Part shown: positions 1 through 57,828 of the stretch, piece after piece
Layout: every line of letters begins with the position of its first letter
Position numbering within the stretch: position 1 is the stretch's first letter
Origin: Marinobacter sp.
GTDB lineage: Bacteria > Pseudomonadota > Gammaproteobacteria > Pseudomonadales > Oleiphilaceae
Assembly: GCA_040223075.1 (NCBI GenBank)
Contig: JAVJZJ010000172.1
Span: 14,114-78,113, forward strand
DNA length: 64,000 nucleotides
Direction of reading: 5' to 3'
Translations under genes and position numbers: made by a program
Notes under the pieces: model-generated
The model's database searches: none
The model's input: only the letters and a program-made list of their open reading frames with translations
What the model was told of the DNA's origin: nothing

Positions 1-989
1 AACGCACCAAGAATAGGGATATTGCCCAGCCCGGGCAGGCGATCGCTATTGTTCAGTGTTGTTTTACTGACCAGGCCACTGATAATGAAGGATTCACCGG
101 GGGCCATGGACACCGTCGTTTCCGTGCGACGAATTCTAAGACCAGGCACAGCCACTCCCGATGTTGCAACACCGGCAGTGAAGTCCAACTCGCTGACCTC
201 CGGAGCTACTTTCAGGATGATCTGATCGTCCTCGATAACGGTAGGCGTCAGCGCGAGACTCACCCCAAACTCTTTGTACTCAATCTGGACCCCGTTGTTA
301 TTGGACTGAGTGGGAATCGGGAACTCCCCCCCGGACAGGAAAGTAGCACTCTGTCCGCTCAAGCTTACCAACGAGGGCTCCGCCAACGTGTAGGCGAAAC
401 CGCCAGATTCCAGGGCATTAATAATGCTGAGTGAACTCTTGCCAAAACTGAAAAGGTTAAAACCTTCGCTGGAAATGCCCGCAGCCGGGCTGCCGGCACC
501 CCCAAAACCACGAAACCCACCCCCACCCGGGGGAGCTAGACCGATACTTGATTCACCGCCGTTGAAGAGTTTGGCGTAATAGAGCCCCAACGTATTCAGC
601 TCCCTGCGGTTAACCTCCACGATACGTATATCGGTCTGAACCTGCATGGCCAGCGGTGATCGCCTCCCCCTGGTTGAACTGATAACCACACTGGATACCA
701 AAGGCTCATCCTTGTTGTCCAACCAGATGCTGAGAGTGGCCGTGCCTGAAGCCTCGCCGGTTACGATCACCTCCGACTCACCGGAAGCAACAACTTTGGC
801 AACACTCGGATCGGAAACCGCGACCTTGCTGAGCTTACCCGGAAAATTCAGGGTACGCTGCTCGCCCGCCCCCATTTCAAGGGCTGCTTGCTGCGCCGCC
901 CCGGCCTGCGCAGCAAACACCAAAAAGGCAAGGATGTACCCTGCCGCTGCCACCAACCCATGCATTCCACGCTTATTGCACATAGACAT
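1..989 (-). CDS. cpaC: Flp/Tad pilus secretin CpaC/RcpA, N-terminal ~329 codons (C-terminus lies beyond the left window edge)
   Basis: The minus-strand frame is open from the ATG at 989 to position 3. It is absent from the ORF track because there is no stop in the window. My translation starts MSMCNKRGMHGLVAAAGYILAFLVFAAQAGAAQQAALEMGAGEQRTLNFPGKLSKVAVSDPSVAKVV (signal peptide plus pilus-secretin N-terminal region). Near position 1 it reads GESFIISGLVSKTTLNNSDRLPGLGNIPILGA, a secretin-family motif. It overlaps the cpaB stop by 17 nt. Confidence 0.85.
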   Translation of the reverse strand, partial: MSMCNKRGMHGLVAAAGYILAFLVFAAQAGAAQQAALEMGAGEQRTLNFPGKLSKVAVSDPSVAKVVASGESEVIVTGEASGTATLSIWLDNKDEPLVSSVVISSTRGRRSPLAMQVQTDIRIVEVNRRELNTLGLYYAKLFNGGESSIGLAPPGGGGFRGFGGAGSPAAGISSEGFNLFSFGKSSLSIINALESGGFAYTLAEPSLVSLSGQSATFLSGGEFPIPTQSNNNGVQIEYKEFGVSLALTPTVIEDDQIILKVAPEVSELDFTAGVATSGVAVPGLRIRRTETTVSMAPGESFIISGLVSKTTLNNSDRLPGLGNIPILGA

Positions 990-1869
990 TCCTTGCTTCA
1001 GAGCCTTCAAACACTTGCACCTTACGCCCGGGGGGGTCGCGCTGGCGTTCGGGGCTTGCTTTTTCCCGGGATGACCGTGGAGATTCCGGGATCAGGTCGG
1101 ACAAGAAAACAACTGATTCCTCCGATTCTTCATCCTTAACATCCGGGCTTGAAGTTGCGGAGCTCTCCTCAGCCACGGGCGAACGTTTTACCGCAGCGAA
1201 ATTGAGCTGAGCCTCCCTCGATGCCAGCACCAGCATTCTGACTTTATCCTCCGGAATCGACAGCACCATGGTGCTATTACGCCTGCGGTCATCTTCTGAA
1301 GAGGAGCCACCCACTGTGGTATCACCCTGAACGGCGAGCACCTGTATGGATTCAAGGAGGGTTTTTGATGATGCTTCGTTTTCGCCTTTAGCCTTGAACG
1401 ACGCGAAAACATCCACAAAGTCCCCGGGTTTCAACAGGCCACCTATGCTCGCCACGCTACTCATTTCAAAAGCAATCGCCGTGTGTCCGTCCGGAACAAC
1501 CTGGCGGATCAGGCTTTGCTTCTCCAGGGTCTCCGTGGTTAACAGCTCGCCAGCTTCCATGAATGTTTCAATAATCAGGTCGTAGGGAACATCCGTGGCT
1601 ACAATGGCATTTTCAATCGGGGTGGCTGTTTCGATTTCGATGAAGCTCTCAGGTAACAGTCTATCGCCAGGCTCAATTGGCTGAACGGCAACAACGTATC
1701 GGTAGAGCGGCTTCTCTTCGACCTCGGCTACAGGCCCGGGCTCGGAGGCAACAGATGCCTTGTTGGCTTCTTCAGCGGCGTCGTACTTCATCAAACCGAA
1801 CAGGGCGAGGGCAATCGCCAGCACGGACATAAGAAGGGAGGGGATAAAATAAACAAAACGAGATTTCAT
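973..1869 (-). CDS. cpaB: Flp pilus assembly protein CpaB/RcpC
   Basis: 298-aa ORF with an N-terminal membrane anchor (FVYFIPSLLMSVLAIALALFGL) and a SAF/RcpC-like body. It sits between the tadE-like gene and the secretin, as in the flp-tadE-cpaB-cpaC gene order. Confidence 0.85.
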   Translation of the reverse strand: MKSRFVYFIPSLLMSVLAIALALFGLMKYDAAEEANKASVASEPGPVAEVEEKPLYRYVVAVQPIEPGDRLLPESFIEIETATPIENAIVATDVPYDLIIETFMEAGELLTTETLEKQSLIRQVVPDGHTAIAFEMSSVASIGGLLKPGDFVDVFASFKAKGENEASSKTLLESIQVLAVQGDTTVGGSSSEDDRRRNSTMVLSIPEDKVRMLVLASREAQLNFAAVKRSPVAEESSATSSPDVKDEESEESVVFLSDLIPESPRSSREKASPERQRDPPGRKVQVFEGSEARNVYVQ

Positions 1870-1952
1870 AACTGCATCATCCTGAGCTCACGAAGGTAAA
1901 ATATCACAATCGCTTCCATATACTCTCCGTCCCTGAGTAAGACTGACTATTC

Positions 1953-2420
1953 TCAGAAGGCCACCGCCGATTTGACCTCGATTGACTCAGGCAAAGGTGG
2001 AAATTTCCCGAGAAACCCAAATGTCAGTTGCGGCACGAATGGTGATTCCTGTCCGCTTGCCAGGACCCTGCATTCCAAAAGCGAAACACTACCCGCACTG
2101 TCTACAGAACAACCCCTGTCTCCGGAACGGGATACGAGTGACTCAGGCAAGCCGGACATCAAAAGTTCCAGAGCTTCGGTTGCCCGCGTGACAGCCTGCT
2201 CAGCCGCACCTTCGTCAAACTGACTGCGGTCGAGGGACATCACAGACGATGCCGCCTTATCGACCGCGTTCTGCAACTGATATTTCTGGTAGAAGACCAC
2301 ACCGTACGCAGCCGAGCCGTACACCATGGCCAGGATCAGAGGGAAGACCATGAGAAACTCAAGCGCAACGACACCCTTGCCGCTTTCGATAGCGGCGTTT
2401 CTTGCTCGTAACGCTATCAT
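1953..2420 (-). CDS. TadE-like pseudopilin / pilus assembly protein
   Basis: 155-aa ORF. The N-terminus GKGVVALEFLMVFPLILAMVYG matches the TadE/TadG-type motif (G-x4-EF followed by a hydrophobic helix). It lies immediately downstream of flp. Confidence 0.7.
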   Translation of the reverse strand: MIALRARNAAIESGKGVVALEFLMVFPLILAMVYGSAAYGVVFYQKYQLQNAVDKAASSVMSLDRSQFDEGAAEQAVTRATEALELLMSGLPESLVSRSGDRGCSVDSAGSVSLLECRVLASGQESPFVPQLTFGFLGKFPPLPESIEVKSAVAF

Positions 2421-2505
2421 GCCCCGGCCTCCTCATCGTCACTTGACACACTCAATGACGCATCACCGACGTTCATTGAGCCAGCGAAGCATACTGCTAC
2501 TACCG

Positions 2506-2712
2506 CTAGGAGGCGGTGGTATCGGCTGCTTCAGTGAATAGGCCCGAGAATGCATCTTGGACGATGGTGTCAAGGCCGCCAGTAGCTCCAAGCGCGCCAA
2601 TAATAATGATGATGGCCGCCGCAAGCACCAGATACTCAAGAGCCGAAGCCCCTTTTTCGCGCTTGCGGGCAGAAATTGAACCAAACTTTTGTCTTATAGC
2701 GTGCATACTCAT
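2506..2712 (-). CDS. flp: Flp/Fap family type IVb pilin
   Basis: 68-aa ORF. The prepilin motif KG|ASALEYLVLAAAIIIIIGALG has the G/xxxxEY Flp processing site followed by a hydrophobic helix. A 300-bp AT-rich leader lies upstream. Confidence 0.85.
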   Translation of the reverse strand: MSMHAIRQKFGSISARKREKGASALEYLVLAAAIIIIIGALGATGGLDTIVQDAFSGLFTEAADTTAS

Positions 2713-3016: not shown

Positions 3017-4402
3017 TCACTTGTGCCAACGCCCATCTCTCCAGAATTGCGCGGAGTCTAACCCCCGCGCGCTCAATTCATCCTCCACGCACGACCGTAT
3101 CTGTTGGTAGATAGGCTCCCCCATGAGGGCACGTTGCTGGAAAATTCCGGCCAGCCGCCTGGCAAAGAACGGACAGGGAAGATCATCATTGGCAAACCCA
3201 TAACTCATAACCCGCGACGCGCCGAACAGCGGGCCCAACTGACCGAGCCTGAATCCGGGATCCTCCTGCTGAATCCTTGCCAGGATCTCACTGCCTTTCC
3301 CCGGAGCACGAATAAAAATTCCGATATCCTCTGGGTATCGGAATAAATAGCGGATCAGAATGGACGTGGGCGCATCAATACGCTTGTCCGCCCGTAGACG
3401 AAACCGGTAGAACGCCTTCACCTGTATGCCCAGTATCCAATAAGCCTCTGCGCTCGTCAGCCCAAAACTCTCTCTGAACAGAGAGAACATGCTCTCGCTG
3501 TTCCCCAGAATAGGTTGCGTATTGCGACTGTATTTCTGGAAGTCAGTCCCGGAAACGGGATTTGCGTTAGTCCACTTGCCTTTTGTCAGGGCCAATTCAG
3601 GTGTTAGATCGCGAGACAGAGCTTCGTCGACCAACACCCGTAAATACTGGTTCTGAAACCAGTTGCTCCACAAGGCATTCAACTCGTCCGAAAAATCCTG
3701 ATAAGTCTCATCGGACATCCAGGCAGTCAGAGAGTCCTGTTCCCGCAGAATGGCCCAGCCTCTCGGTTCAAGCCTGTCGATCTCGAGAGGTATCCGCCCC
3801 CCTTCTTTCTGCGCATAACTGGCTAACAATGTTTTAAAGATGTCCCCAAACTTTCCCGCCACAAGCATTTGTAAACGGGTTACCGGGATACCGCTATTTG
3901 ATGAGCTTGAGTTATCTTCCGAGAGCATTTTGTAAGAAGAAATATATGACCTGCCAAACAAGGGTGCGAAACTGCTTTTCCGCGGCACGAGACCCTTACC
4001 ATCTTGCTCCTTGGACTCGAACGGCATAAACCGTCCGATCAAGTCAAACATCTCAGGGTTGGTGGGCCGCAAAATCAACTGATTGTAGTGAGGATATTTC
4101 AATAACAAACGGACCAGAATGGCCTGACTTGGCCGCAAACTCGGCAATTCATCCACCTTCCCTTGCGCATCGTCGATTTGGTTGGCGGCAGAACGAGCAC
4201 TTCCAAGAACATCGACGGATGATTTAGCCCGCTTGAGCTGACTCAGCCGATTGACCGGCACGTTCATCAGCATTGCGAGATCAAGATCTCTGACCTCTCC
4301 GCCACCCATGACACCTTCGAGCATGACTTTTAAATACTGCAAATTCTCTCCGCAGATCGGCTTACTGGGATGGGAGAGTTCGTTTTTATGCGACACCGAC
4401 AT
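3017..4402 (-). CDS. Hypothetical protein with an internal two-fold duplication (HTH-like segment plus conserved module, twice)
   Basis: 461-aa ORF with an ATG start. Repeat A is DLAMLMNVPVNRLSQLKR ... SQAILVRLLLKYPHYNQLILRP ... FAPLFGRSYISSYKM. Repeat B is FGLTSAEAYWILGIQVKAFYRF ... TSILIRYLFRYPEDIGIFIRAP ... LGPLFGASRVMSYGF. I recognise no family. Confidence 0.6.
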   Translation of the reverse strand: MSVSHKNELSHPSKPICGENLQYLKVMLEGVMGGGEVRDLDLAMLMNVPVNRLSQLKRAKSSVDVLGSARSAANQIDDAQGKVDELPSLRPSQAILVRLLLKYPHYNQLILRPTNPEMFDLIGRFMPFESKEQDGKGLVPRKSSFAPLFGRSYISSYKMLSEDNSSSSNSGIPVTRLQMLVAGKFGDIFKTLLASYAQKEGGRIPLEIDRLEPRGWAILREQDSLTAWMSDETYQDFSDELNALWSNWFQNQYLRVLVDEALSRDLTPELALTKGKWTNANPVSGTDFQKYSRNTQPILGNSESMFSLFRESFGLTSAEAYWILGIQVKAFYRFRLRADKRIDAPTSILIRYLFRYPEDIGIFIRAPGKGSEILARIQQEDPGFRLGQLGPLFGASRVMSYGFANDDLPCPFFARRLAGIFQQRALMGEPIYQQIRSCVEDELSARGLDSAQFWRDGRWHK

Positions 4403-4566: not shown

Positions 4567-5166
4567 GTGTCAGTAATTGGTGCAAAAACGTTTTTTTTCT
4601 TCGAAGGCGACGCCCAGCCTTCAGACTACACTGTCAGACAACCTGATTATTTTCAGAAGCCAGACCTGGTACTGCCCCGCTCAGGCGTTACGCTACTCTA
4701 TGGCCATAAAGGACCAGGCAGCCTGGTTGGTGCGGCTATAAGGAAAAGTGCGACGGAGAATCTTGGGGTATGTTTTGCTGACGTAAAAATAGAAATTGGA
4801 GAATGGGACCCTGGCAAACAAAGCCTGGACAACTTTGAGTACTGCCGCTTTCTAAATCTGCCTTCTCGTGCAAACAAGGAGGTGCTGGATGACATTAATC
4901 GCCGTTGGAACAGCTGGCTTGATCAGCAATGCCTTGAGCATGAATCTTTCCCACGAAAACCCTCGCCCAACATGCATTTTCTCGACAACCTGATCCAGAC
5001 AGAGCCCTACTCGCATCTCAATGCTATTGCTTACGATGCGGTCACACGCTTCGGAATTTCTAAATTTGTGACCGTATTCAATCTTGATGCAATTTTAAAG
5101 GATGAAGTTACGGTGATCCCGCCATCCACTCGCATATCCTTCGTCAAGCCTGGAGCAAATGACTAA
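4567..5166 (+). CDS. Hypothetical protein
   Basis: 199-aa ORF with a GTG start, divergent from the 461-aa gene. It shares a short motif with that gene (DDINRRWNSWLDQQCL versus DELNALWSNWFQNQYL). No recognisable family. Its 3' end overlaps the convergent DGC gene by 23 nt. Confidence 0.45.
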   Translation: MSVIGAKTFFFFEGDAQPSDYTVRQPDYFQKPDLVLPRSGVTLLYGHKGPGSLVGAAIRKSATENLGVCFADVKIEIGEWDPGKQSLDNFEYCRFLNLPSRANKEVLDDINRRWNSWLDQQCLEHESFPRKPSPNMHFLDNLIQTEPYSHLNAIAYDAVTRFGISKFVTVFNLDAILKDEVTVIPPSTRISFVKPGAND

Positions 5167-7279
5167 TGCCTGGCACTACATTATTTCTTCCGTTACTTTT
5201 CGCTTGATAAAGCGCTATGTCTGCGCGCTTGATAATAGAACCGGTTGTGTCTCCTGGTTGAAACTCTGCAACTCCAATGCTAACAGTCAACGTCATTCCC
5301 AATTCGAAATTATAAGCTCCAAGAAAACGACGAATTGTATTCGCGACCCCAATCGCCGGCTCAATCGGCGTTTCTGTCAGTAGAACGAGAAACTCTTCCC
5401 CTCCCCATCGACCGATAAGATCAGCCGCCCTGATTTTCTGACCGACTAAACCCGACAACTCTCTTAGAACTCTGTCCCCTACATCATGACCGAAGTTGTC
5501 GTTGATGGATTTGAAGTGATCAATATCGAAAAGCAACACTGACAGCGGGTTGTCGTATCGCTGGCTTCGCTCCAGCTCATGCTGCAGGACCTCTTCAATC
5601 TTGTTGCGATTGTAGAGCCCGGTCAAACCGTCGTAGATAGCTTTATGCGTTAAGCTCTCTATCAATCTATGGCGGCTAAGGGCGCTAGCCAGAATAGGGG
5701 CAACAGTAGAGAGCAGATTCAGTTTCCACTTCAACTGCCCGCCCTGAGAATCAAAAACCAGAAATCCTTCAAGCGTGCTTTCAACACGCAAAGGAAACAC
5801 CATGTACCGCGACGCGCAGCCTTGCGCCCCTTCAGTATCGTCCCCGCCCAAACCCAGGCGTCGGGCCATCTCATGATCCTTGCCAATCAGCACACACTGA
5901 TACTCAGCTTCCAGTGAAGCCTCCATATCTCGCTTGTGAATGAGCAACCTATCACTCACCAACCACTTCCGTACACTTTCAATGTCGAGCTCGGAACAGG
6001 TGACGCCCCCTTCATTTATCAAACCAAACGATCGATACATCGCATTATTGTCTGACAGCACCCAAAACCCCAGACTGGATGAAGGAATCCCCATGAAGGA
6101 AACTATTTTCTCAATCGCATCCGTGAATGTCGTGATGTCAGTGCGGTGGGGGCTAGCCATCAGTTGCTGACTAAAAAACCTTAAGAATCCCTCAAACTGA
6201 GCATTTTCCCGAATGGCTTCCATAGACTGATGCCGTTCAATGGTTGCGCTCGCAAGATGCAGGAGTGGAGCCAGCTTCTGGGAATCAATTTGTGCATTCA
6301 AAGAGCCACTCAGGAAAAAGAAATCCAAAGTTCCAAGCAGCTGATTACCCATCCCCAGTATTGGCAAAGCGATCCAGTGATGCACATCACTCGACTCCAT
6401 GACGCCTGCAATTTCTGTGGACACTATATTTTCAGTGTCACAAAAATCAGTCCTCGTCTCTTTTTTCAATATCGCGGCGGTAGCGTGAGCCCCATTTCCG
6501 TATACCACCTGGACATCGTTGATTGCTATACGTGCGTTTTCAGACAACCCTTTCGGCTCAACTGCGAATCGGAGGCGTTCGCTCTTATCATCATAGATTG
6601 TGATTCCGATCGATGCCCTGCTTCCAATAACGTCACTGCACAATCCCACGACTCCCAACAAGGCATCAGGCAGATTTTGTGCGGTGAGCGTAGAATCGAC
6701 CAATTGTGCGTAGTCGCCAAGAACTTTCCTTCGATCCTCACGTACAGCCCTGACCTTTAATGAGATTACGGATTCCTGACCAAACAAACCCTGAATCGGT
6801 GCTACGCTGACATCGACAGTTATAAGCCCTCTGTTTGCAACGTCGGCCGGGTTCAGAATGTAATCCTCCACATCCACGGGAAAAGATACGCCCTCCTGCA
6901 TAATTCGCCTGAGATTGGCAAGCTCAGGCATGGGCTCGTTTTCAGGATTCAGAAGCGCCTCCAACCTCCTTCTCGCAGGCTCCTCCGTGCCAGCGCCAAG
7001 GAGATCGCAGCATGCTTTGTTTAATGACCTGATCGAAAACGGGACTTTCTGGACGATGAATACCGGAAGGTGGATGACCTCAAAAACATGGGCCATATCC
7101 TTGCTGACCAGCTGAACCTTCTGGGAAAGCTCACGATTTCTAGCCAAGATGGAAGTAGATCGGGACTCTACCAGAGTAGCCCTGGACAGGGCTGCCCGAA
7201 GCCCCAGAGCACCAATAGCCAAAATGATAACCAGCACCACTAAAGCCAGCCAATCCAGGGGAAACACAAAGACTGGCAT
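5144..7279 (-). CDS. Membrane-anchored sensory diguanylate cyclase (TM, PAS/GAF-like region, GGDEF)
   Basis: 711-aa ORF with an N-terminal TM helix (LALVVLVIILAIGALGL). The C-terminal GGDEF domain reads GLTGLYNRNKIEE...FDIDHFKSINDNFGHDVGDRVL...RAADLIGRWGGEEFLVLL, with a GGEEF active site and an RxxD I-site five residues upstream. The PAS/GAF assignment of the middle region was made by eye only. Confidence 0.9.
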   Translation of the reverse strand: MPVFVFPLDWLALVVLVIILAIGALGLRAALSRATLVESRSTSILARNRELSQKVQLVSKDMAHVFEVIHLPVFIVQKVPFSIRSLNKACCDLLGAGTEEPARRRLEALLNPENEPMPELANLRRIMQEGVSFPVDVEDYILNPADVANRGLITVDVSVAPIQGLFGQESVISLKVRAVREDRRKVLGDYAQLVDSTLTAQNLPDALLGVVGLCSDVIGSRASIGITIYDDKSERLRFAVEPKGLSENARIAINDVQVVYGNGAHATAAILKKETRTDFCDTENIVSTEIAGVMESSDVHHWIALPILGMGNQLLGTLDFFFLSGSLNAQIDSQKLAPLLHLASATIERHQSMEAIRENAQFEGFLRFFSQQLMASPHRTDITTFTDAIEKIVSFMGIPSSSLGFWVLSDNNAMYRSFGLINEGGVTCSELDIESVRKWLVSDRLLIHKRDMEASLEAEYQCVLIGKDHEMARRLGLGGDDTEGAQGCASRYMVFPLRVESTLEGFLVFDSQGGQLKWKLNLLSTVAPILASALSRHRLIESLTHKAIYDGLTGLYNRNKIEEVLQHELERSQRYDNPLSVLLFDIDHFKSINDNFGHDVGDRVLRELSGLVGQKIRAADLIGRWGGEEFLVLLTETPIEPAIGVANTIRRFLGAYNFELGMTLTVSIGVAEFQPGDTTGSIIKRADIALYQAKSNGRNNVVPGISHLLQA

Positions 7280-7281
7280 GC

Positions 7282-9183
7282 CTATTGATCGCCTATTTCG
7301 AACAACGCATCGACGAGACCAAAAATATCATTCGAGCTTTTCTCTCTGTCCGCCACTAGGTTGTAGCGAACACGTATAACCTGGCCAGATGCAATGGTCG
7401 GAACACTGCTACTGACGCTGTTACGCCAAACCAGAACAAAACCCTCGCCACCGAGAACATCGTCTGCAGCATCATCAACGACTATATGTTGATGGGAGTC
7501 CATATGAGTGAGGACTTTACACACTCGGAAATCTTGCTCAAAGACTGGCTCGGGAAACCCCTTCCCCCACGGTTGTCGCTCTACCCAATGAGCCAAGGGA
7601 AACACCCTTTGATTTCTATTGAGTAACCCGTCACTCTCCTCCCGCCCGACAGCGAATGGAAATTCACCCTTGGCACTGTCAAGATAAACTCGAAGAGCTG
7701 ATTCAAAAGCCGATACTCCAGATTCATCCAGCTCAATATGGGCAAATAGCGTGTCAGCCTGCCATATGGGATTATAAGACATCAGCTTCGACTTGAACGA
7801 CATTGCGATCAGAGCATCCCCCAAATGAACATCTTGGGAGCGTATATGGCATAAAGTTCTAGTTGGCCTATCAGGGTTTGAGGCGATCAACATACAGACC
7901 CCTCCGAACTGACGACAATTTTGCTCCACAACGACCGCCAGCAATGCCTCGGAGAGAGAATCATTTCTCTCGCTCCTCAACTGAAACTGCTTTTTTTTCA
8001 GCTCTATCAAGTCTCTACTTTCCCGGTTTAATACAGGATGCACAGTGCTGCCTGCATGGGAACCGAGAACATCTAATTGCTCTACCAGTAGCGCGGCTTT
8101 GGCGCTTTTGTCTTTCGCGACCTTCCTGTCGCTTGTGAGCAAACAGTCAACCAGCGTCTGGCAATCTTCTGTCTGGGCCATAACCCTGAACAGAGGAGAC
8201 AGACATACATCAAGCTCTTTTGAGGTGAACGGATATTCTGCGCCACACTCTGTCAAAAGGGCTCTTAGACCATAACTCATCAACCCCCTGGAATGTGCGG
8301 TCCTTGACGGCAAAGACCAGCCCCGATTGATTTGCTCGAGGCCAGAGCGAACCAAGAGCCTCATGGGGGCAGAAAGAGGCATGTCATCAAGAAGGATGGA
8401 CAACCCTACAAATGCCCCATTGGTATCCAAACCTGACGATTGCAACTGGGCAACAAGGGCCTGACTCCGCGGATGCGCCGATATCGACTGGGCGATCTCG
8501 TCCCGGACGCACAACAAGAGAAAATGTAGGATGCAGCATAGCGTATAACGTTTTGGGGGTTCTCCATTGCCTTTATCCCAATAGGGAACAAAGGCAAGGC
8601 AATCTGGCGTATCATCAACGCAGTCCGAATTTGCAGAGACTGTTGCCAGTTCAATATGATGGCCAAGCGCGTCAATCTGGTTTTTAACCTCCCGGGCGAT
8701 CCCTTTCGGTGGGCTCAGCAATACAATAAGATCCGGGGCGGATCGATCAATTTCGGACTTTACCAGTTCGGCACACCCGCTCTCGATGGAACCAAGCAGC
8801 ACCCTCACATCTGGCTCGGCCCTCCAGGCCCCGAGATCCCCGCGAGTGGTAGTGACAACATCTCTTGTTCGGCGCATAGCCTGCGATAACAAGCCAATCC
8901 CTCGCTTGAAGCAGGCAAGACTCAATATAATTTCCGATGAGGCTTTACCCATCACAAGGATGCGCCGTCCATCCAAAAATGATTGAGCAAGCTTTGATGC
9001 TAGATTTCGAAATTCAGGAGAAGCCAGGTCATTTGCTATGGTCTCAACGCTCTGAAGGCCCGGAAAGCTGGCACCTCTCGCCCTGAAGATCCTCTCCTTT
9101 ACAGCATCCAGATCTGACAGGGAATCAGGTTTACGGACCTTAAGGTGGCGCTTAATAGTAGTGGTGATAACAGTATTCGACAT
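7282..9183 (-). CDS. RecJ-like protein with degenerate DHH/DHHA1 catalytic motifs (pseudo-nuclease)
   Basis: 633-aa ORF that is colinear with RecJ as I remember E. coli RecJ. IFRARGAS aligns to LYASRGVR. GRRILVMGKASSEIILSLACFKRGIG aligns to GTRIIVVGDFDADGATSTALSVLAMRSLG, so motif I DxDxDG is lost. DLIVLLSPPKG aligns to QLIVTVDNG. IELATVSANSD aligns to VIVTDHHL, so DHH is lost. IWQADTLFAHIEL aligns to KFGGHAMAAGLSL, so GGH is lost. QPWGKGFPEPVFEQDFRV aligns to GPWGQMFPEPLFDGHFRL, so the C-terminal OB region is conserved. Its stop lies 2 nt before the DGC start. Confidence 0.75.
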   Translation of the reverse strand: MSNTVITTTIKRHLKVRKPDSLSDLDAVKERIFRARGASFPGLQSVETIANDLASPEFRNLASKLAQSFLDGRRILVMGKASSEIILSLACFKRGIGLLSQAMRRTRDVVTTTRGDLGAWRAEPDVRVLLGSIESGCAELVKSEIDRSAPDLIVLLSPPKGIAREVKNQIDALGHHIELATVSANSDCVDDTPDCLAFVPYWDKGNGEPPKRYTLCCILHFLLLCVRDEIAQSISAHPRSQALVAQLQSSGLDTNGAFVGLSILLDDMPLSAPMRLLVRSGLEQINRGWSLPSRTAHSRGLMSYGLRALLTECGAEYPFTSKELDVCLSPLFRVMAQTEDCQTLVDCLLTSDRKVAKDKSAKAALLVEQLDVLGSHAGSTVHPVLNRESRDLIELKKKQFQLRSERNDSLSEALLAVVVEQNCRQFGGVCMLIASNPDRPTRTLCHIRSQDVHLGDALIAMSFKSKLMSYNPIWQADTLFAHIELDESGVSAFESALRVYLDSAKGEFPFAVGREESDGLLNRNQRVFPLAHWVERQPWGKGFPEPVFEQDFRVCKVLTHMDSHQHIVVDDAADDVLGGEGFVLVWRNSVSSSVPTIASGQVIRVRYNLVADREKSSNDIFGLVDALFEIGDQ

Positions 9184-9222
9184 CAGGCATTCCCATAGGC
9201 TCAGTGTGCGCGGATTCAGGCC

Positions 9223-9792
9223 TCAATTATTCGTAGCTGAGTCCAGGTGCATGATCTGAGATTCGAGTTCCTTATCAAGTGCCGTTTCCGCATGTTTCTT
9301 GAGAACGCCAATAAATTCATAGCAGCCCCGGTAAGCGGCCAAGCCAAGCAGAGCGCGCATTATAGAATCACTCAGAAAGGGCTCATCAGGATCTGATGCC
9401 CGCTCATATACGATCGGGTCGTCAGCCAATACTTGCAGTACAAAGTCCCAGTCTTCTCCAAAAATCTGCTGCACATCCGTAGAGCCGAGCACAAGATCCA
9501 TAACGTCAAGCTGACCACCATAGGCAGCACAGATGATCCCGTATCCCTGGTCAACCAACGTCTCTGATACAAAGGTGAATCGCCTGGGCAGCCCCCTCAA
9601 GAGCAGCTTTACGACCTGAATATCGCCCTTATAGCACACCTCTTTGAATAACTTCCCGGTTCTGAAGAGCAGGGCATCAAGCTCGGCGCCTGATGGTAGA
9701 GGTTTATCTTCGAGTTCAGAAAAAAATACGTTGAGCCTTTTCGGAGTCATCAATCTCATTTCATCAAACTCAGGCAAACTGACCATGCGCAT
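9223..9792 (-). CDS. Hypothetical protein with ankyrin-repeat-like segments
   Basis: I prefer the ATG at 9792 (MRMVSLPEF), preceded by GGGAGAGG; the ORF-track start at 9807 is a TTG. GDIQVVKLLLRG and GIICAAYGGQLDVMDLVLG resemble the ANK consensus (xPLHxAAxxGHxxVVxLLL). It is the first gene of the three-gene unit 9792->5144. Confidence 0.55.
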   Translation of the reverse strand: MRMVSLPEFDEMRLMTPKRLNVFFSELEDKPLPSGAELDALLFRTGKLFKEVCYKGDIQVVKLLLRGLPRRFTFVSETLVDQGYGIICAAYGGQLDVMDLVLGSTDVQQIFGEDWDFVLQVLADDPIVYERASDPDEPFLSDSIMRALLGLAAYRGCYEFIGVLKKHAETALDKELESQIMHLDSATNN

Positions 9793-10057: not shown

Positions 10058-11134
10058 ATGAGCCTTCCCTCTGCCCGGTCCCGCTGCCCTCCCCTGCCCT
10101 GTTGGTTGTCCCGTGTATGGACTGGAATGCAGGAGGATCGCAGGCTCTATGCCATCATCCTGATTTACGTGCTGTCGTCCACAGCCGTAGTGCACGGCGC
10201 CGGTTTGGGGGACCGCTACTCCCTGTTTATTTATCCTGGCTTGAGCATCACTATCGGGGGCGCTTTCGCTGGGCTGGCCTTCGTGGTGTATGCCCTCTAC
10301 GTGATGACCACTGTGCGCCCCGACTTCCCATTGCGGCATGTGCAAGCAAGTCTAAGCACGGCTCTGAAGTCAAAGGCAGTGGCACGGGGCATCCCTTTAG
10401 TTTTGGCCTTTACCTTTTTCTTTTCTGCTGTGTCGTCATTCAAATCCCTGATCCCGGCATTGCAGCCATTTCAGTGGGACCCAGCACTGGCCAAGCTGGA
10501 TGTCTGGCTGCATGGTGGGCGGCACCCCTGGCAATGGCTTCAGCCACTGCTGGGGTTTCCGGCTGTCACAGCCTTCCTTAATGTCGTCTACAACTTGTGG
10601 CTGATCATCATGTTCGGCGTGTATTTCTGGCACGCATTTTCTCCCAGAAACGCCCCACTGCGACAACGTTTTCTGGTGACGTTTCTGCTTTGCTGGATAT
10701 TCAACGGCAGTTTTCTGGCAATGCTGTTATCGTCTGGCGGGCCATGCTTCTGGTCGGGGCTGTATCCTGATTTAGCCAACCCCTTTACCGCGCAGATGGA
10801 TTACCTGCAAAGTGTCACTATTGGGAGTGGGGGCGGGTTGTGGGCCGTTTCCACCCAGCAAATGCTCTGGGAGCATTACGGCCAAAGTTCACTGGGTATC
10901 GGGTCAGGCATTTCCGCCATGCCGAGTATGCATCTATCCGTCGCCTGGTTACTGTTCCTTGCGGCCCGACATGGTCCTGGCTGGCTGGCTATAAGCGCCG
11001 GGCTATTTTGTCTGACGATTCTTCTGGGGTCGGTCCATCTGGCGTGGCACTATGCCATCGATGGATACCTTTCCATTCTGACCACCACGCTGATCTGGTG
11101 GGGGGTGCGATATAGTCATGAACGCATGGATTGA
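10058..11134 (+). CDS. PAP2-superfamily integral membrane protein (PAP2_3 / sphingomyelin-synthase-like H-H-D type)
   Basis: 358-aa polytopic ORF. The C-terminal motifs SAMPSMHLSVA and GSVHLAWHYAIDGY match PAP2 motifs C2 (SxH) and C3 (HxxxD). The true start may be the internal Met at 10127 (MQEDRRLY). Confidence 0.7.
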   Translation: MSLPSARSRCPPLPCWLSRVWTGMQEDRRLYAIILIYVLSSTAVVHGAGLGDRYSLFIYPGLSITIGGAFAGLAFVVYALYVMTTVRPDFPLRHVQASLSTALKSKAVARGIPLVLAFTFFFSAVSSFKSLIPALQPFQWDPALAKLDVWLHGGRHPWQWLQPLLGFPAVTAFLNVVYNLWLIIMFGVYFWHAFSPRNAPLRQRFLVTFLLCWIFNGSFLAMLLSSGGPCFWSGLYPDLANPFTAQMDYLQSVTIGSGGGLWAVSTQQMLWEHYGQSSLGIGSGISAMPSMHLSVAWLLFLAARHGPGWLAISAGLFCLTILLGSVHLAWHYAIDGYLSILTTTLIWWGVRYSHERMD

Positions 11135-12209
11135 GGCGGCAGGGGAGGCCTGGAAGTCACCGTTTCTGCTAGTGTGGATCGGATTAGTTGCTCTGTTTTC
11201 CGGGGCGGTGTATGCGGTGACACACAGCTATAACCTGCCGACGTTCCCCACCAATGCCTATTATTCACCGCCCTTGCTGATGGGGACTTTCTTTTTTCTG
11301 CTGTTGTTCTGTATTTATCGCACCGTTCGGATGATGTTTCGCGTACCCGACGGCAGCCTGTTTGTGGCCGTCGGCCAGGACTTGAGCAGCTTTGTGACTC
11401 GCAAGCGCCTGCTTGTGGCGTTGCCATTGTGCCTGACTATGCCGTTTTTCTTCTCTATGTTTACTACCATGAAAAACGCCATTCCTACCCTGGTCCCGTT
11501 CTACCTGGATCCCATCCTGATTAAGGCGGACCAGTGGCTGCACTTTGGCCAGGATCCCTGGCGCTGGCTGCAGCCGCTATTCGGCGTACCGATAATCACT
11601 ATGTTAATCAGTATCTGTTACAAGCTCTGGTTCTTTATCAAGTACGGATTCATCCTCTGGCAGTCCTGCCGATTGCGTGGAGAGGGTGAGCGAGATCAGT
11701 TCTTCATCGCTCTGTTGTTGTGCTGGATCGTAATCGGCGCAATAATGGCCACCGGTCTTTCCTCTGCGGGTCCCTGCTTTTTCGGCAAGGCCTACCCTGA
11801 GCTTACGAACCCCTTTTCGGAACAAATGGCCTACCTTTACCGGGCCGATGTCTCCTATCCTGTTTTTGATTTGTGGGCGCAGGACTATCTCTGGAAGGCG
11901 CATGCCGGACACTACACAACCGACTTCTCCGGCATCAGTGCCATGCCTAGCCTTCACGTGAGCATGGCCACACTGTTTTTGTTGTCGATATGGTCTTTCG
12001 GGCCGGCCCTGAGGTGGCTTTTTGGCGCTTATCTGGCGTTGATTCAGATTGGCTCCGTGCATCTGGGCTGGCACTATGCGCTGGACGGCTATATCGCCAT
12101 AGTAATGACCGTATTGATCTGGCGGGTAGCGGGGTGGCTTGTGTCTTTATGGCATCCCCCAGTGAGTGAAACAACCAGAGTTTCAATGACCAGCATCATG
12201 CGACAATAA
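11118..12209 (+). CDS. PAP2-superfamily integral membrane protein, tandem paralog
   Basis: 363-aa ORF that overlaps the upstream paralog by 17 nt. It carries the same motifs (SAMPSLHVSMA, GSVHLGWHYALDGY) and a conserved block DQWLHFGQDPWRWLQPLFGVP, compared with DVWLHGGRHPWQWLQPLLGFP in the paralog. Confidence 0.7.
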   Translation: MNAWIEAAGEAWKSPFLLVWIGLVALFSGAVYAVTHSYNLPTFPTNAYYSPPLLMGTFFFLLLFCIYRTVRMMFRVPDGSLFVAVGQDLSSFVTRKRLLVALPLCLTMPFFFSMFTTMKNAIPTLVPFYLDPILIKADQWLHFGQDPWRWLQPLFGVPIITMLISICYKLWFFIKYGFILWQSCRLRGEGERDQFFIALLLCWIVIGAIMATGLSSAGPCFFGKAYPELTNPFSEQMAYLYRADVSYPVFDLWAQDYLWKAHAGHYTTDFSGISAMPSLHVSMATLFLLSIWSFGPALRWLFGAYLALIQIGSVHLGWHYALDGYIAIVMTVLIWRVAGWLVSLWHPPVSETTRVSMTSIMRQ

Positions 12210-55829: not shown

Positions 55830-56146
55830 TGGCACAGTTCGATGTATACCCCAACCCAAGCAAAACCAGCAAAGCGCACTACCCTTACCTTGTCGATATT
55901 CAGAACAGCCTGCTGAGCGAACTGGCAACTCGCATCGTCATCCCGCTGGGAAAACGCTCCGCATTTGGTGGTGAAGCGATGCGGGGAGTCACGCCGGAAA
56001 TCAGCTTTGCAGACCAAGAGCTTCTTCTTTTAACCCCGCAAATTTCCTCTGTTTCTGAAAAGCATCTCAAAAACCCGATTGGCTCTCTATCACATTTCAG
56101 AGACCAGATTGTTGGAGCCTTGGACATGGCTATCACCGGCATTTAA
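55829..56146 (+). CDS. ccdB: Type II toxin CcdB (gyrase poison family)
   Basis: 105 aa. MAQFDVYPNPSKTSKAHYPYLVDIQNSLLSELATRIVIPL... is a typical CcdB N-terminus (QFxVY.N......PY.vdvQ), and the protein ends ...ALDMAITGI. Confidence 0.85.
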   Translation: MAQFDVYPNPSKTSKAHYPYLVDIQNSLLSELATRIVIPLGKRSAFGGEAMRGVTPEISFADQELLLLTPQISSVSEKHLKNPIGSLSHFRDQIVGALDMAITGI

Positions 56147-56212
56147 CGCATTGCTCACCGGTAAATTGCGAGCGAAGCGAGTAATTTATCCGCGTGCAGC
56201 AGATTGTTATGC
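56141..56212 (-). repeat. attC-like site (72 bp) closing the DUF418 cassette
   Basis: On the minus strand it reads GCATAAC (R'', 56212->56206) ... G|TTAAAT (R', 56147->56141; GTTAAAT is a perfect GTTRRRY). The L-stem pairs ATTGCTCACCGGTAAATT with AATTTA[T]CCG[C]GTG[C]AGCA[G]AT, with the extra bases again on the R'' side. The loop is 15 nt. R' overlaps the ccdB stop codon. Confidence 0.65.
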
Positions 56213-56217
56213 CACGA

Positions 56218-57348
56218 TCAACTTCCACTAATTTTCCGCAGAACCGGCTCTAATGGGCCTCGCCCGAAGATTTTGGTACAAACACCCACTAACATCATAG
56301 CAATAAGCGCGATTATCAAAGAAACTGGAATCAATGCCGCATGACCGAGTGAGTGAAAGAACCCCAAACCATAGGCACCGAATACAAACCCAGTCAGCAC
56401 CCCTTGAGCAACATAGGATGACAGAGAATTTTGCCCGGCAAGTACCAGCAAATTTGGCACTTTTATCATTCTTGAAAGACGAATGAAGATATATAGGTAA
56501 ACCAGAGAAAGAGCAGGTGCACCGATGGCTATTAAAGAAAACCCAAGTAAATATAATATTTCGTAAGTTTCCGGAAAAATGCCGCCTACAACAGCAGCGT
56601 ACAAAGCGTTCAAAGGCAAAGCAATTATTATTAGAAGTGGCAGGCGCTGTTGAATCAGATTAAACCCTTCGCTGTTTTTAGAGAAAAAATCTGTTTTAGC
56701 TGCGGCCAAACCCACCGCAAAAGCACTAAGGGCTAACGGTCCTTGGAGGAGAACTAAAAATCCGAGAGTTATAGGCCAGTCCGAAAATCTTGCCTGGGTT
56801 GCCTCAAGAAAACCGCCTCCGAGGTTTGCGTTTCCAATCGCGGCAAATGAATTAGCTTTGTCAGTCATCACGGCATCAATGAGCACCGCAATTATTGTGA
56901 GAAAAACCATACTCAATGGCAGCATCCAAGCCGCGAACTTGATTAATTTCCGAGGAGGAAAATCCTTTATCAACCAAAGAAATAATCCCAACAGCGCATA
57001 TAAGACTAAAATATCACCACTAAACACCAATATTGCATGAAAGACGCCTATAATAGCCAGCCCGAGCATTCTTCGGAAATAACGCTTTGAAAACGACTGT
57101 CCTTTCGACTCTGCAGACCTTGATTGAATGGCCATACCCCAACCAAAAATAAAGGAAAACAGGATGAAAAATTTTAACTGAAGAAAACACTCCACCAGAA
57201 ATGCCGCAGATTTGTCGTAAAAACTATCAGGGGGAATAAACACAGATTCTACTGGCAACGCCATAAATGGCACATTTACAACACATATACCAACCAGTGC
57301 AGCCATTCTGATTATGTCAACTTCATTACTTCGTGGCAGAGTGTTCAT
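56218..57348 (-). CDS. DUF418 (YeiB-like) polytopic membrane protein, cassette-borne
   Basis: 376-aa AT-rich ORF. Its N-terminus DIIRMAALVGICVVNVPFMA and overall pattern are typical of DUF418/YeiB proteins. Confidence 0.8.
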   Translation of the reverse strand: MNTLPRSNEVDIIRMAALVGICVVNVPFMALPVESVFIPPDSFYDKSAAFLVECFLQLKFFILFSFIFGWGMAIQSRSAESKGQSFSKRYFRRMLGLAIIGVFHAILVFSGDILVLYALLGLFLWLIKDFPPRKLIKFAAWMLPLSMVFLTIIAVLIDAVMTDKANSFAAIGNANLGGGFLEATQARFSDWPITLGFLVLLQGPLALSAFAVGLAAAKTDFFSKNSEGFNLIQQRLPLLIIIALPLNALYAAVVGGIFPETYEILYLLGFSLIAIGAPALSLVYLYIFIRLSRMIKVPNLLVLAGQNSLSSYVAQGVLTGFVFGAYGLGFFHSLGHAALIPVSLIIALIAMMLVGVCTKIFGRGPLEPVLRKISGS

Positions 57349-57424
57349 GATATGGTTTCTCTTCAGACATAGCGCTTTGGTTTAGCGGCGGCCCGCCAGG
57401 GGCGTCCGGTGGACTGGGGGAAGT

Positions 57425-57453
57425 GCATAACGTACTGGAATAACTGGTTATGT
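57425..57453 (-). repeat. Vestigial 29-bp attC (R boxes only) between the glyoxalase and DUF418 cassettes
   Basis: On the minus strand it reads ACATAAC-CAGTTATTCCAGTAC-G|TTATGC. ACATAAC overlaps the glyoxalase stop and is the exact complement of GTTATGT, which opens that cassette at 57835. TTATGC is the exact complement partner of the GCATAAC R'' at 56212. The L boxes and loop are missing. Confidence 0.35.
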
Positions 57454-57813
57454 GGTTGTGCGCTCATTGAACAAAATTCTGTTTGAAAACGGATCTACCA
57501 CTTCGAATATCCTATCACCCCAAGGTGCCGTCGTGATCTCTGGCAGAGAATACGTATAACCTCGTGAACAAATTTCGCCGTGCAGGGCCTCAAGCTCATC
57601 AGTATTCACGAACGTTTTGGAACCGGGAGTACAATCTCCAGAGTGTTCACTGAGGTGGAAGACCAGTTCATCTCTAGAGACTTGCATATAGATAGGGAAG
57701 CCCGGCTCAAAGCGATGTTCCCAATCGAGCGACATACCGAGGAAGTCCAAGTAGAACTCTTTGGCCTTAGACTCATCGAAGATTCGGATGATTGTAATGG
57801 CTTGAAATTGCAT
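57448..57813 (-). CDS. VOC / glyoxalase-bleomycin-resistance family protein, cassette-borne
   Basis: The start at 57813 (MQFQAITIIRIFDESKAKEFYLDFLGMSLDWEH...) was chosen. The 121-aa product follows the single-domain VOC pattern (...VFHLSEHSGD...APWGDRIFEVVDPFSNRILF). Confidence 0.8.
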   Translation of the reverse strand: MQFQAITIIRIFDESKAKEFYLDFLGMSLDWEHRFEPGFPIYMQVSRDELVFHLSEHSGDCTPGSKTFVNTDELEALHGEICSRGYTYSLPEITTAPWGDRIFEVVDPFSNRILFNERTTT

Positions 57814-57828
57814 CCATGCTCTCCTTCC

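What the first reader, a model, noticed from the sequence alone, without database searches (positions are those of the whole stretch)
5144..9792. Tightly coupled three-gene unit: ankyrin-like protein, catalytically degenerate RecJ paralog, membrane diguanylate cyclase
Three minus-strand genes are packed with gaps of 39 nt and 2 nt, which suggests they are co-transcribed.
- The middle 633-aa protein is colinear with RecJ from the N-terminal helical region to the C-terminal OB region (QPWGKGFPEPVFEQDF versus E. coli GPWGQMFPEPLFDGHF).
- Every phosphoesterase motif I can align is replaced. Motif I GDFDADGATS becomes MGKASSEIIL. VDNG becomes LSPPKG. VTDHHL becomes ATVSANSD. DHHA1 GGHAMAAG becomes QADTLFAH.
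- Given those losses it is unlikely to be the housekeeping recJ, and it sits in a region of about 50% GC against about 60% in the core.
- DHH/DHHA1 enzymes include pGpG and c-di-AMP phosphodiesterases (NrnA, GdpP, PggH types). A dead DHH scaffold fused in an operon to a GGEEF cyclase with an intact I-site could therefore be a nucleotide- or ssDNA-binding sensor or effector, not a nuclease.
- I know of no described system with this composition.
Basis: partly seen in the sequence, partly recalled or inferred. Interest (0 to 1): 0.72.

Follow-up and report, generated by a model that had tools for sequence, protein, structure and literature searches.

The report
Dead RecJ paralog partnered with diguanylate cyclase
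A small group of Marinobacter bacteria keep a copy of the DNA-repair nuclease RecJ that has lost its catalytic residues, always placed directly in front of a c-di-GMP-making enzyme beside a Tad adhesion-pilus gene cluster, so it probably now acts as a regulator, though no function was tested.

Summary
Three minus-strand ORFs lie at 9792-9223, 9183-7282 and 7279-5144, with gaps of 39 and 2 nt.

**The 633-aa protein**
- It is a full-length RecJ homolog (Foldseek E 1e-21; profile-profile probability 100%, E 1.5e-55).
- DHH motifs I-III and the DHHA1 GGH motif are replaced in every family member.
- It is under purifying selection (dN/dS about 0.12).
- The family is tiny: six 50%-identity clusters among 1.84 billion representative proteins, and named sources are all Marinobacter.

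**The unit**
- The pseudo-RecJ is followed immediately by the same GGEEF cyclase, with an intact I-site, in all 8 lineages found.
- The module always abuts a conserved pair of unknown genes (orf199 and orf461) and a Tad/Flp pilus operon.
- The "ankyrin-like" gene is a patchy, optional third partner, and its ankyrin label is unproven.
- One genome has the ANK-like gene plus the cyclase without the pseudo-RecJ, and other Tad loci lack the module entirely.

**Interpretation**
Those two domains are the least conserved, and one lineage has deleted the DHHA1-like domain.
- My best reading is a non-catalytic regulatory partner of the cyclase feeding c-di-GMP control of Tad pili.
- It is undescribed, narrowly distributed and functionally untested.

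The parts
9223..9792 (-). 189-aa 'ANK-like' accessory gene, an optional first gene of the module
   Evidence: ORF. Homologs sit in the same position in L003/L004 (61% identity), L010 (30%) and L019 (27%, there directly upstream of the cyclase); they are absent from 5 other lineages. The ankyrin assignment is sub-threshold.
7282..9183 (-). 633-aa catalytically degenerate RecJ paralog (pseudo-RecJ)
   Evidence: Foldseek top hits are bacterial RecJ at E 1e-21. hhalign probability 100, E 1.5e-55. Motif table. dN/dS 0.12. 89 invariant residues over 10 sequences.
8479..8973 (-). DHH-like domain (aa 71-235) without the DxD, DNG or DHH motifs; contains the family-specific invariant element TRDVV-x2-T-x-RG (aa 106-115)
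7984..8478 (-). Helical/linker region (aa 236-400), the most conserved part; includes HPRSQALVAQL and the insert GWSLPSRTAHSRGLLSYG
   Evidence: Conservation 0.68 with 32 invariant residues. This is the region aligned to TIGR00644 and to 5f54.
7654..7983 (-). DHHA1-like domain (aa 401-510); GGH is replaced by ADT, and the R and S of GSxRS are kept; weakly conserved and deleted in the M. pelagius ortholog
7285..7653 (-). RecJ OB-fold region (aa 511-633) with the invariant ERQPWGxGFPEPxFxQxF
   Evidence: RecJ_OB hits are sub-threshold here but above the cutoff in relatives. Conservation 0.66 with 31 invariant residues.
5144..7279 (-). 711-aa diguanylate cyclase: N-terminal anchor helix, PAS-like segment, two GAF-like segments, GGDEF domain
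   Evidence: GGDEF E 7.5e-45 and TIGR00254 E 9e-52. PAS and GAF hits are weak. One hydrophobic segment at aa 1-33. PDB profile hits are diguanylate cyclases.
5174..5653 (-). GGDEF catalytic domain (aa 543-702); GGEEF is at 5390-5404 and the I-site RAAD at 5420-5431
   Evidence: Invariant R617, D620 and G626-F630 in 8 orthologs.
4567..5166 (+). orf199: conserved 199-aa protein with no known domain; convergent with the cyclase gene and overlapping its 3' end by 23 nt
   Evidence: 65-84% identity in all related loci. No Pfam, NCBIfam, PADLOC or PHROGs hit.
3017..4402 (-). orf461: conserved 461-aa all-helical protein of unknown function heading the Tad operon side
   Evidence: 43 clusters, named ones all Marinobacter. 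AF2 pLDDT 85 with no PDB fold match. Always paired with orf199 next to Tad or type IVb pilus genes.
3..2712 (-). Start of the Tad/Flp pilus operon: flp 2712-2506, tadE 2420-1953, rcpC 1869-973, and the rcpA secretin 986-3, which is cut by the window edge
   Evidence: Pfam Flp_Fap (weak), TadE, RcpC, and T2SS-T3SS_pil_N plus Secretin. tadZ, tadA, tadB and tadC follow in related loci.

Best explanation
The 633-aa gene encodes a RecJ-derived pseudoenzyme. It keeps the whole RecJ architecture (DHH-like, helical linker, DHHA1-like, OB) but has lost the metal- and phosphate-binding motifs, so it should not cut DNA.

It is made together with a cytoplasmic PAS/GAF-GGDEF diguanylate cyclase held at the inner membrane by one helix. 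A gap of 2 nt suggests translational coupling.

My best reading is that it is a non-catalytic regulatory or sensor subunit. It would dock on the cyclase's cytoplasmic sensor region and set how much c-di-GMP the cyclase makes. The small ANK-like protein would be a second, optional partner of the same cyclase.

The module is an accessory input attached to the Marinobacter Tad/Flp pilus island, so its likely output is c-di-GMP control of Tad-pilus expression or assembly and of surface attachment.

Shown: homology, motif loss, purifying selection, conserved adjacency, an intact cyclase active site and I-site, and linkage to the Tad locus.

Inferred: physical interaction, the direction of regulation, the signal sensed, and the Tad output.
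For: - Fold and colinearity with RecJ (E 1e-21; probability 100, E 1.5e-55).
- Loss of motifs I-III and GGH in all 10-12 family members, while the nearest paralogs (P0013, P0014, L012) and canonical RecJ keep them.
- Purifying selection: dN/dS 0.12 at dS 0.28, and 89 invariant residues across sequences down to 34% identity.
- The pseudo-RecJ is immediately upstream of the orthologous cyclase in 8 of 8 lineages, with called gaps of -4 to +22 nt in seven. L002's called gap is 129 nt, but its cyclase ORF is open from the base after the pseudo-RecJ stop. The upstream flank varies: DUF1232/MotA, an ABC transporter, an integrase, or NusG.
- The cyclase's sensor region is as narrowly distributed as the pseudo-RecJ (4 clusters).
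- Both evolve faster than their neighbours: 34-38% identity against 60-68% for orf199 and orf461 in the same loci.
- In the two lineages where the pseudo-RecJ is missing (L019) or lacks its DHHA1-like domain (L011), the cyclase's membrane-proximal PAS-like segment is also truncated.
- GGEEF and RxxD are invariant.
- The module always abuts orf199/orf461 and the Tad genes.
- Precedent for a non-enzymatic first gene product that de-represses the cyclase encoded by the second gene of a bicistron: RcbA/RcbB (PMC12282931).
Against: - There is no direct evidence of interaction. No multimer model or experiment was possible.
- All loci come from one genus, so conserved adjacency could partly reflect vertical inheritance.
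- The cyclase exists without the pseudo-RecJ in one genome (L019), and the Tad island exists without the module in others (L013, L017). Neither partner is therefore obligatory.
- orf199, on the opposite strand, separates the module from the Tad operon, so they are not one transcript.
- The co-truncation hint rests on only two events.
- The pseudo-RecJ model is only of medium confidence (pLDDT 64.7).
Confidence: 0.5

Rival explanations
1. The dead DHH/DHHA1 cleft is retained as a binding pocket, so the protein would be a receptor for c-di-GMP, pGpG or ssDNA acting downstream of, or as feedback on, the cyclase.
For: - DHH/DHHA1 enzymes handle cyclic dinucleotides and pGpG (general knowledge of the family; review PMC9779919, listed).
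- Weaker fold matches to GdpP (5xsp) and NrnA (4ls9) appear.
- The R and S of the DHHA1 GSxRS motif and most motif-IV Asp residues are kept.
- 13 invariant arginines.
- The OB motif is strongly conserved and could still bind ssDNA.
Against: - The DHH-like and DHHA1-like domains are the least conserved parts. The DHHA1-like domain has only 6 invariant residues.
- The M. pelagius ortholog has lost the DHHA1-like domain in frame but keeps the gene and the pairing.
- The motif-IV Asp is GG in P0005 and P0006.
- The whole protein is acidic (pI 5.2-6.2) and its OB region has pI 4.9.
Confidence: 0.2
2. The adjacency is inherited but not functional. The pseudo-RecJ would be a Cdc45-like scaffold acting in DNA metabolism or some other process unrelated to the cyclase and the pilus.
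For: - Non-catalytic RecJ homologs that act as scaffolds exist. Cdc45 appears among the fold matches (6cc2).
- All examples come from a single genus.
- The nearest active paralog sits beside SNF2-helicase genes.
Against: - The pseudo-RecJ is never found apart from the cyclase in 8 lineages, despite saturated synonymous divergence and repeated rearrangement of the flanks.
- Stop and start codons are 2 nt apart or overlap.
- Both proteins have similarly narrow distribution and fast evolutionary rates.
Confidence: 0.15
3. It is still an active nuclease or phosphoesterase that uses an unconventional active site.
For: A few acidic residues persist near the old motifs: E/D at the third motif-I position, D in motif II of some members, and DD at motif IV.
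Against: - Both motif-I Asp residues, both motif-III His residues and the DHHA1 His are gone in every member.
- The surviving acidic residues are not invariant.
- Pfam DHH and DHHA1 models do not detect the protein at all.
Confidence: 0.05
4. It belongs to a mobile-element or anti-phage defence module that happens to lie in a low-GC island.
For: - The region has low GC.
- An integrase and a TraI_2 gene lie upstream in L001.
- The active paralog in L012 lies beside an integrase and SNF2 helicase pieces.
Against: - There are no PADLOC or PHROGs hits for any of the five proteins.
- Most loci have no integrase or tRNA nearby.
- The chromosomal position next to DUF1232/MotA is stable in five lineages including the window.
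- The low GC extends over the whole Tad island. This fits the known horizontal spread of Tad loci (general knowledge).
Confidence: 0.05
5. It is a decaying pseudogene or a chance ORF.
For: Catalytic motifs are lost, and database models barely detect the protein.
Against: - Intact ORFs of 627-650 aa in 7 of the 8 lineages; the eighth, M. pelagius, has an intact in-frame 537-aa ORF.
- dN/dS 0.12.
- 89 invariant residues.
- A structured AF2 model with a RecJ fold.
Confidence: 0.02

Closest known systems
Bacterial RecJ 5'-3' ssDNA exonuclease (TIGR00644; PDB 5f55, 2zxo, 8y30)
   Same: Same domain order and fold over the full length. The helical linker is conserved, and so is the OB-entry motif PWGxGFPEP.
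   Different: - Motifs I-III (DxD, DNG, DHH) and the DHHA1 GGH are all replaced.
- The protein carries family-specific inserts (TRDVV..T.RG and GWSLPSRTAHSRGLLSYG).
- It scores 30 bits against the 397-bit cutoff.
- It is patchy within one genus.
- It is linked to a cyclase gene and not to DNA-repair genes.
Uncharacterised RecJ paralogs of about 700-800 aa with intact motifs (P0013, P0014; M. gelidimuriae L012:539-2644)
   Same: They are the closest relatives by profile score (194-200 bits against 80 or less for canonical RecJ). They share the derived signatures ERQPWG..FPEP.F.Q.F.V, HQ and W[FR].S.
   Different: They keep DFDxDG, DNG, TDHH and GGH/SGH. The one context seen has SNF2-helicase pieces and an integrase, with no cyclase or pilus genes. 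In a simple NJ tree they group with canonical RecJ, not with the pseudo clade, so the ancestry is unresolved.
Cdc45 and archaeal GAN/RecJ-Cdc45 (PDB 6cc2, 5ghs, 7bih)
   Same: The principle is the same: a RecJ-fold protein reused as a scaffold. Loss of nuclease activity applies to eukaryotic Cdc45 and some archaeal homologs only (general knowledge; archaeal GAN retains activity). These structures are also recovered by fold search.
   Different: The match is much weaker than to bacterial RecJ (E 1e-9 to 1e-12 against 1e-21). There is no replicative-helicase context. This looks like an independent, recent bacterial origin.
RcbA/RcbB of Vibrio vulnificus (PMC12282931)
   Same: A bicistronic pair in which a non-enzymatic first product controls the GGDEF cyclase encoded by the second gene. 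It is the best analogy for how this module may work.
   Different: RcbA and RcbB interact through TPR domains. There is no sequence or fold relationship to RecJ. The analogy is functional only and was not tested here.
DHH/DHHA1 phosphodiesterases of cyclic-dinucleotide signalling (GdpP, PggH, NrnA, Pde2)
   Same: Same superfamily fold, with a thematic link to c-di-NMP turnover. Fold matches 5xsp and 4ls9 appear at E 1e-5 to 1e-6.
   Different: Those enzymes are active and carry intact DHH and GGGH motifs. They lack the RecJ linker and OB architecture. The protein here is clearly RecJ-type and lacks the catalytic residues.

Membership tests
RecJ (DHH + DHHA1 + RecJ_OB exonuclease) | Overall fold and domain order colinear with RecJ | tested here: met
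   Foldseek against 8y30, 5f55 and 2zxo: E 1e-20 to 1e-21 over about 590-640 aligned columns. hhalign global: probability 100, E 1.5e-55.
RecJ (DHH + DHHA1 + RecJ_OB exonuclease) | DHH motifs I (DxD), II (D), III (DHH) and IV (D) that bind the catalytic metals | tested here: not met
   I becomes GKASSE, II becomes SPP, III becomes VSA. Only the motif-IV Asp is mostly kept, and it is GG in P0005 and P0006.
RecJ (DHH + DHHA1 + RecJ_OB exonuclease) | DHHA1 GGH and GSxRS motifs | tested here: not met
   GGH becomes ADT or ADA. GSxRS becomes CxxRS, with R and S kept. The domain is deleted in L011/P0012.
RecJ (DHH + DHHA1 + RecJ_OB exonuclease) | Scores above curated family cutoffs (TIGR00644, PF01368, PF02272, PF17768) | tested here: not met
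   TIGR00644 scores 30.1 bits against 396.9. There is no DHH or DHHA1 hit. RecJ_OB scores 15.9 against 27 in the window protein, and 28.6-28.7 in P0009 and L010.
RecJ (DHH + DHHA1 + RecJ_OB exonuclease) | 5'-3' ssDNA exonuclease activity | not testable with these tools
   Needs a biochemical assay.
GGDEF diguanylate cyclase | GGDEF domain above the curated cutoff | tested here: met
   PF00990 scores 153 bits against 23.8. TIGR00254 scores 175 against 37.4.
GGDEF diguanylate cyclase | GG[D/E]EF active-site loop and RxxD inhibitory site five residues upstream | tested here: met
   G626-G-E-E-F630 and R617-x-x-D620 are invariant in 8 orthologs.
GGDEF diguanylate cyclase | c-di-GMP synthesis | not testable with these tools
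   Needs an enzyme assay.
Ankyrin-repeat protein (upstream 189-aa gene) | Ank repeats detected above the Pfam threshold or by a profile method | tested here: inconclusive
   - PF00023 gives E 0.066, 14 bits against 21.1, and only in 1 of 3 homologs.
- DARPin and ANKRA2 chains match at E 0.45-1.5.
- hhalign against a DARPin consensus scores 15.9 (P 0.084), compared with 8-13 for shuffled sequences.
Tad/Flp pilus gene cluster (neighbour) | flp pilin, tadE-like pseudopilin, rcpC, rcpA secretin, tadZ, tadA ATPase, tadB/C | tested here: met
   The window has Flp (weak), TadE, RcpC and Secretin. The orthologous loci continue with TadZ_N, T2SSE and T2SSF.
DHH-type c-di-NMP/pGpG phosphodiesterase (GdpP/PggH/NrnA) | Intact DHH and GGGH catalytic motifs in a two-domain DHH-DHHA1 core | tested here: not met
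   The motifs are absent. The architecture is RecJ-type with a linker and OB domain.
Known anti-phage defence systems | Match to any PADLOC-DB protein model | tested here: not met
   No hit for any of the five proteins at E <= 0.01.

The most novel reading that the evidence does not exclude
A bacterial, Cdc45-like dead RecJ has been exapted as the sensing subunit of a diguanylate cyclase. Through its conserved OB and linker surfaces it would detect single-stranded or extracellular DNA or short oligonucleotides. It would convert that cue into c-di-GMP that switches Tad-pilus-mediated attachment, giving a direct nucleic-acid-to-second-messenger link built from a repurposed repair nuclease.
Probability: 0.12. 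Interest if true: 0.8.

Novelty: new variant of a known kind. Interest (0 to 1): 0.55.

Why it matters
**RecJ fold in a new role.** Catalytically dead RecJ-fold proteins are known as scaffolds in eukaryotic and archaeal replication. I found no description of a bacterial one, nor of any RecJ-type protein tied to c-di-GMP signalling.

**A new kind of cyclase partner.** If the pseudo-RecJ is a regulatory subunit of the cyclase, it adds a new class of partner to the short list of proteins known to gate diguanylate cyclases. It would also give a concrete handle on how Tad pili, important for marine surface and particle colonisation, are controlled in Marinobacter.

**Testability.** It is directly testable, because a cultured type strain (M. 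goseongensis KCTC 12515, L008) carries the locus.

**Limits.** The family is very small and genus-restricted, and nothing about its function is yet shown.

Tried and rejected
1. Sequence-only searches of the pseudo-RecJ against the PDB, single and profile, gave nothing significant. RecJ 5f54 appeared only at E 2.7. Fold and profile-profile methods were needed.
2. PADLOC and PHROGs scans of all five proteins were empty, so I dropped the defence and phage readings.
3. The promoter and terminator scan was no better than shuffles, so it says nothing about co-transcription.
4. orf461 gave a confident AF2 model (pLDDT 85) but no PDB fold match. Only a weak local match to the MqsA helix-turn-helix appeared, at probability 0.3-0.5. 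It could not be used to identify a c-di-GMP output.
5. The ankyrin test by Pfam, PDB profile and hhalign against a DARPin consensus stayed marginal.
6. I considered an RxxD I-site-like motif in the invariant RRTRD element as a possible c-di-GMP site. I rejected it as evidence because P0011 has QTTRD at that position.
7. I looked for a second recJ in the window and found none.
8. Four literature searches found no paper on a RecJ-like protein linked to a cyclase or to Tad.
9. I first concluded that the ANK-like gene was a chance neighbour, since it is absent from L001, L002 and L005. I revised this after finding it at 27-30% identity in L010 and L019, in the same position relative to the cyclase.

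Full report
**1. What is in the window**

- 9792-9223, 189 aa, starting at the ATG preceded by GGGAGAGGGG.
- 9183-7282, 633 aa.
- 7279-5144, 711 aa.

The gaps are 39 nt and 2 nt. The junction between the second and third reads TAG-GC-ATG. GC is 48-52% across 2-13 kb, against about 58-64% at 15-29 kb and about 54-66% over most of the remainder. Promoter and terminator pattern scans are no better than shuffled sequence, so co-transcription is inferred from spacing only.

**2. The 633-aa protein is a RecJ paralog**

Curated models barely see it:
- RecJ_OB E 0.014.
- TIGR00644 at 30 bits against a cutoff of 397.
- No DHH or DHHA1 hit.
- No significant PDB sequence hit.

More sensitive methods are clear:
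- An AF2 model built from seven homologs (pLDDT 64.7) matches bacterial RecJ structures first and over the full length (8y30, 5f55, 2zxo; E 1e-20 to 1e-21). Archaeal RecJ/GAN, Cdc45, GdpP and NrnA follow at lower significance.
- A global profile-profile alignment of 10 family members against 107 canonical RecJ sequences gives probability 100%, E 1.5e-55, over 541 columns.

**3. The catalytic motifs are gone**

| Motif | Canonical RecJ | This family |
|---|---|---|
| I | GDxDxDG | G[KR]x[ST]x[ED] |
| II | DNG | [SND]P-x |
| III | DHH | VSA and variants |
| DHHA1 | GGH | ADT or ADA |

- The R and S of GSxRS are kept.
- The motif-IV Asp is mostly kept.
- The OB-entry motif ERQPWGxGFPEP is kept.

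**4. It is a functional gene, not a wreck**

- Ten sequences, down to 34% identity to the window protein, share 89 invariant residues, 13 of them Arg.
- dN/dS is 0.12 at unsaturated dS of 0.28. This is only slightly more relaxed than its neighbours at 0.06-0.08.
- The protein has no hydrophobic segment and so should be cytoplasmic.

**5. Distribution and origin**

- An exhaustive HMM search of 1.84 billion representatives finds only nine proteins at E < 1e-30.
  - Six are of the degenerate type.
  - Two, of 697 and 793 aa, keep a Pfam DHH domain and the catalytic motifs (the shorter also a DHHA1 domain).
  - One is partly degenerate.
- Canonical RecJ follows only at E 1e-18 and weaker.
- Where a source names the organism, it is Marinobacter. 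The one exception is a MAG labelled "Pseudomonadota".
- The active long paralogs share derived signatures with the pseudo family.
- One of them lies next to SNF2-helicase pieces and an integrase in M. gelidimuriae.
- A simple NJ tree does not resolve whether they are the direct ancestors.
- No second recJ lies in the window. I could not search the whole genome.
- Patchy occurrence within one genus argues that this is not the housekeeping gene.

**6. The conserved unit**

Eight distinct lineages carry the pseudo-RecJ: the window, L001/L009, L002, L003/L004, L005/L006/L008, L007, L010 and L011.

- In every one the pseudo-RecJ is followed at once by the orthologous cyclase. In L002 the cyclase ORF is open from the base after the pseudo-RecJ stop.
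- The upstream flank differs between lineages: DUF1232/MotA, an ABC transporter, integrase plus TraI_2 plus a two-component pair, or a NusG paralog.
- The downstream side is constant: a convergent 199-aa gene, then a 461-aa gene. Wherever the contig extends further (all but L011) flp, tadE and the Tad genes follow, through tadZ and tadA in the longest loci.
- The cyclase sensor region is as rare as the pseudo-RecJ, at 4 clusters.
- Both evolve faster than orf199 and orf461 in the same loci: 34-38% identity against 60-68%.

**7. The cyclase**

- It has one N-terminal hydrophobic helix.
- It has weak PAS and GAF signals.
- It has a strong GGDEF domain, with GGEEF and RxxD invariant in eight orthologs.

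**8. The third gene**

- The ANK-like gene recurs at 61% identity in L003/L004, 30% in L010 and 27% in L019, always just upstream of the module. Five pseudo-RecJ lineages lack it.
- In Marinobacter sp. C2H3 (L019) it is followed after 42 nt by the cyclase ortholog, with no pseudo-RecJ.
- The cyclase is therefore the constant element, and the two small-partner genes are each optional.
- The ankyrin label remains unproven.

**9. Relation to the Tad island**

- orf199 and orf461 with the Tad genes occur without the module in L013 and L017. L017 keeps a 48-aa GGDEF remnant next to an IS element.
- The same gene pair also precedes type IVb (bundlin/PilS) pilus loci in L014 and L015.
- The module is thus an accessory add-on at the edge of a pilus island, not part of its core.

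**10. Which parts of the pseudo-RecJ matter**

- Conservation is highest in the helical linker (0.68, 32 invariant residues) and the OB region (0.66, 31 invariant residues).
- It is lowest in the DHH-like and DHHA1-like domains (0.54 each; the DHHA1-like domain has 6 invariant residues).
- The M. pelagius ortholog (537 aa, identical to P0012 but for an 8-residue longer N-terminus) has lost the DHHA1-like domain in frame but keeps the gene and the pairing.
- This argues against the old nucleotide cleft as the functional site.
- In that lineage, and in L019, which lacks the pseudo-RecJ, the cyclase's membrane-proximal PAS-like segment is also truncated. This two-event hint suggests that the two pieces work together.

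**11. Mechanism**

My preferred reading is a non-catalytic partner that gates the cyclase, with the output on Tad pili. The nearest working precedent is the RcbA/RcbB bicistron (PMC12282931). A receptor role for c-di-GMP, pGpG or ssDNA remains possible through the OB and linker surfaces. Nuclease activity, a defence role and pseudogene status are each unlikely.

**12. Novelty**

Four full-text searches found no description of a RecJ-like protein linked to a diguanylate cyclase or a Tad locus. I rate it a new variant of known kinds: a pseudoenzyme scaffold, and a cyclase with an accessory partner. It is real and conserved, but confined to one genus and functionally untested.

Noticed in passing
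window 3017-4402 (-) and 4567-5166 (+): orf461 and orf199 form a divergent pair with no database annotation. The pair is conserved at 38-84% identity next to Tad loci, and also next to type IVb (bundlin/PilS) pilus loci in Marinobacter (L014, L015). orf461 gives a confident all-helical AF2 model (pLDDT 85, pTM 0.85) with no PDB fold match beyond a weak local match to the MqsA helix-turn-helix. They are likely a pilus-associated regulator pair of a new fold.
   Followed up: partly
window 5144-5166: The cyclase gene and the convergent orf199 overlap by 23 nt at their 3' ends. The same overlap of about 23 nt recurs in L001 and L005. This could allow antisense or transcriptional interference between the module and the pilus regulators.
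   Followed up: no
window 10058-12209 (+): Two tandem PAP2_3-family membrane phosphatase paralogs (358 and 363 aa, overlapping by 17 nt) lie between the ANK-like gene and DUF1232. They are absent from the corresponding position in L003 and L005. The stretch has a strongly negative AT skew (-0.25 to -0.28).
   Followed up: no
window 56001-59000: A second low-GC segment (44-46% GC) is embedded in sequence of 52-63% GC. It may be another horizontally acquired island.
   Followed up: no
L012:539-2644 (M. gelidimuriae) and P0013/P0014: These are RecJ paralogs of about 700-800 aa with intact DHH motifs and GGH or SGH in DHHA1, and they are the closest active relatives of the pseudo family. In L012 the gene lies next to an SNF2-type helicase that appears split by an integrase-containing insertion.
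   Followed up: partly
L011:9231-9791 and L016:3876-4355: A NusG paralog (PF02357) sits just upstream of the module or the orf199 region in two Marinobacter lineages. It might be a specialised antiterminator for the pilus island.
   Followed up: no
L017:6042-6185: A 48-aa remnant of the cyclase's GGDEF domain start (46% identity) persists next to orf199 in a Tad locus that lacks the module. An IS (rve) transposase is nearby. This is evidence of secondary loss of the module.
   Followed up: partly
L001:2507-9635 (Marinobacter sp. HL-58): An integrase, a TraI_2 protein, a 529-aa unknown, a response regulator (GerE type) and a large HATPase_c protein are inserted directly upstream of the pseudo-RecJ. 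In other lineages DUF1232/MotA lie at that position.
   Followed up: no
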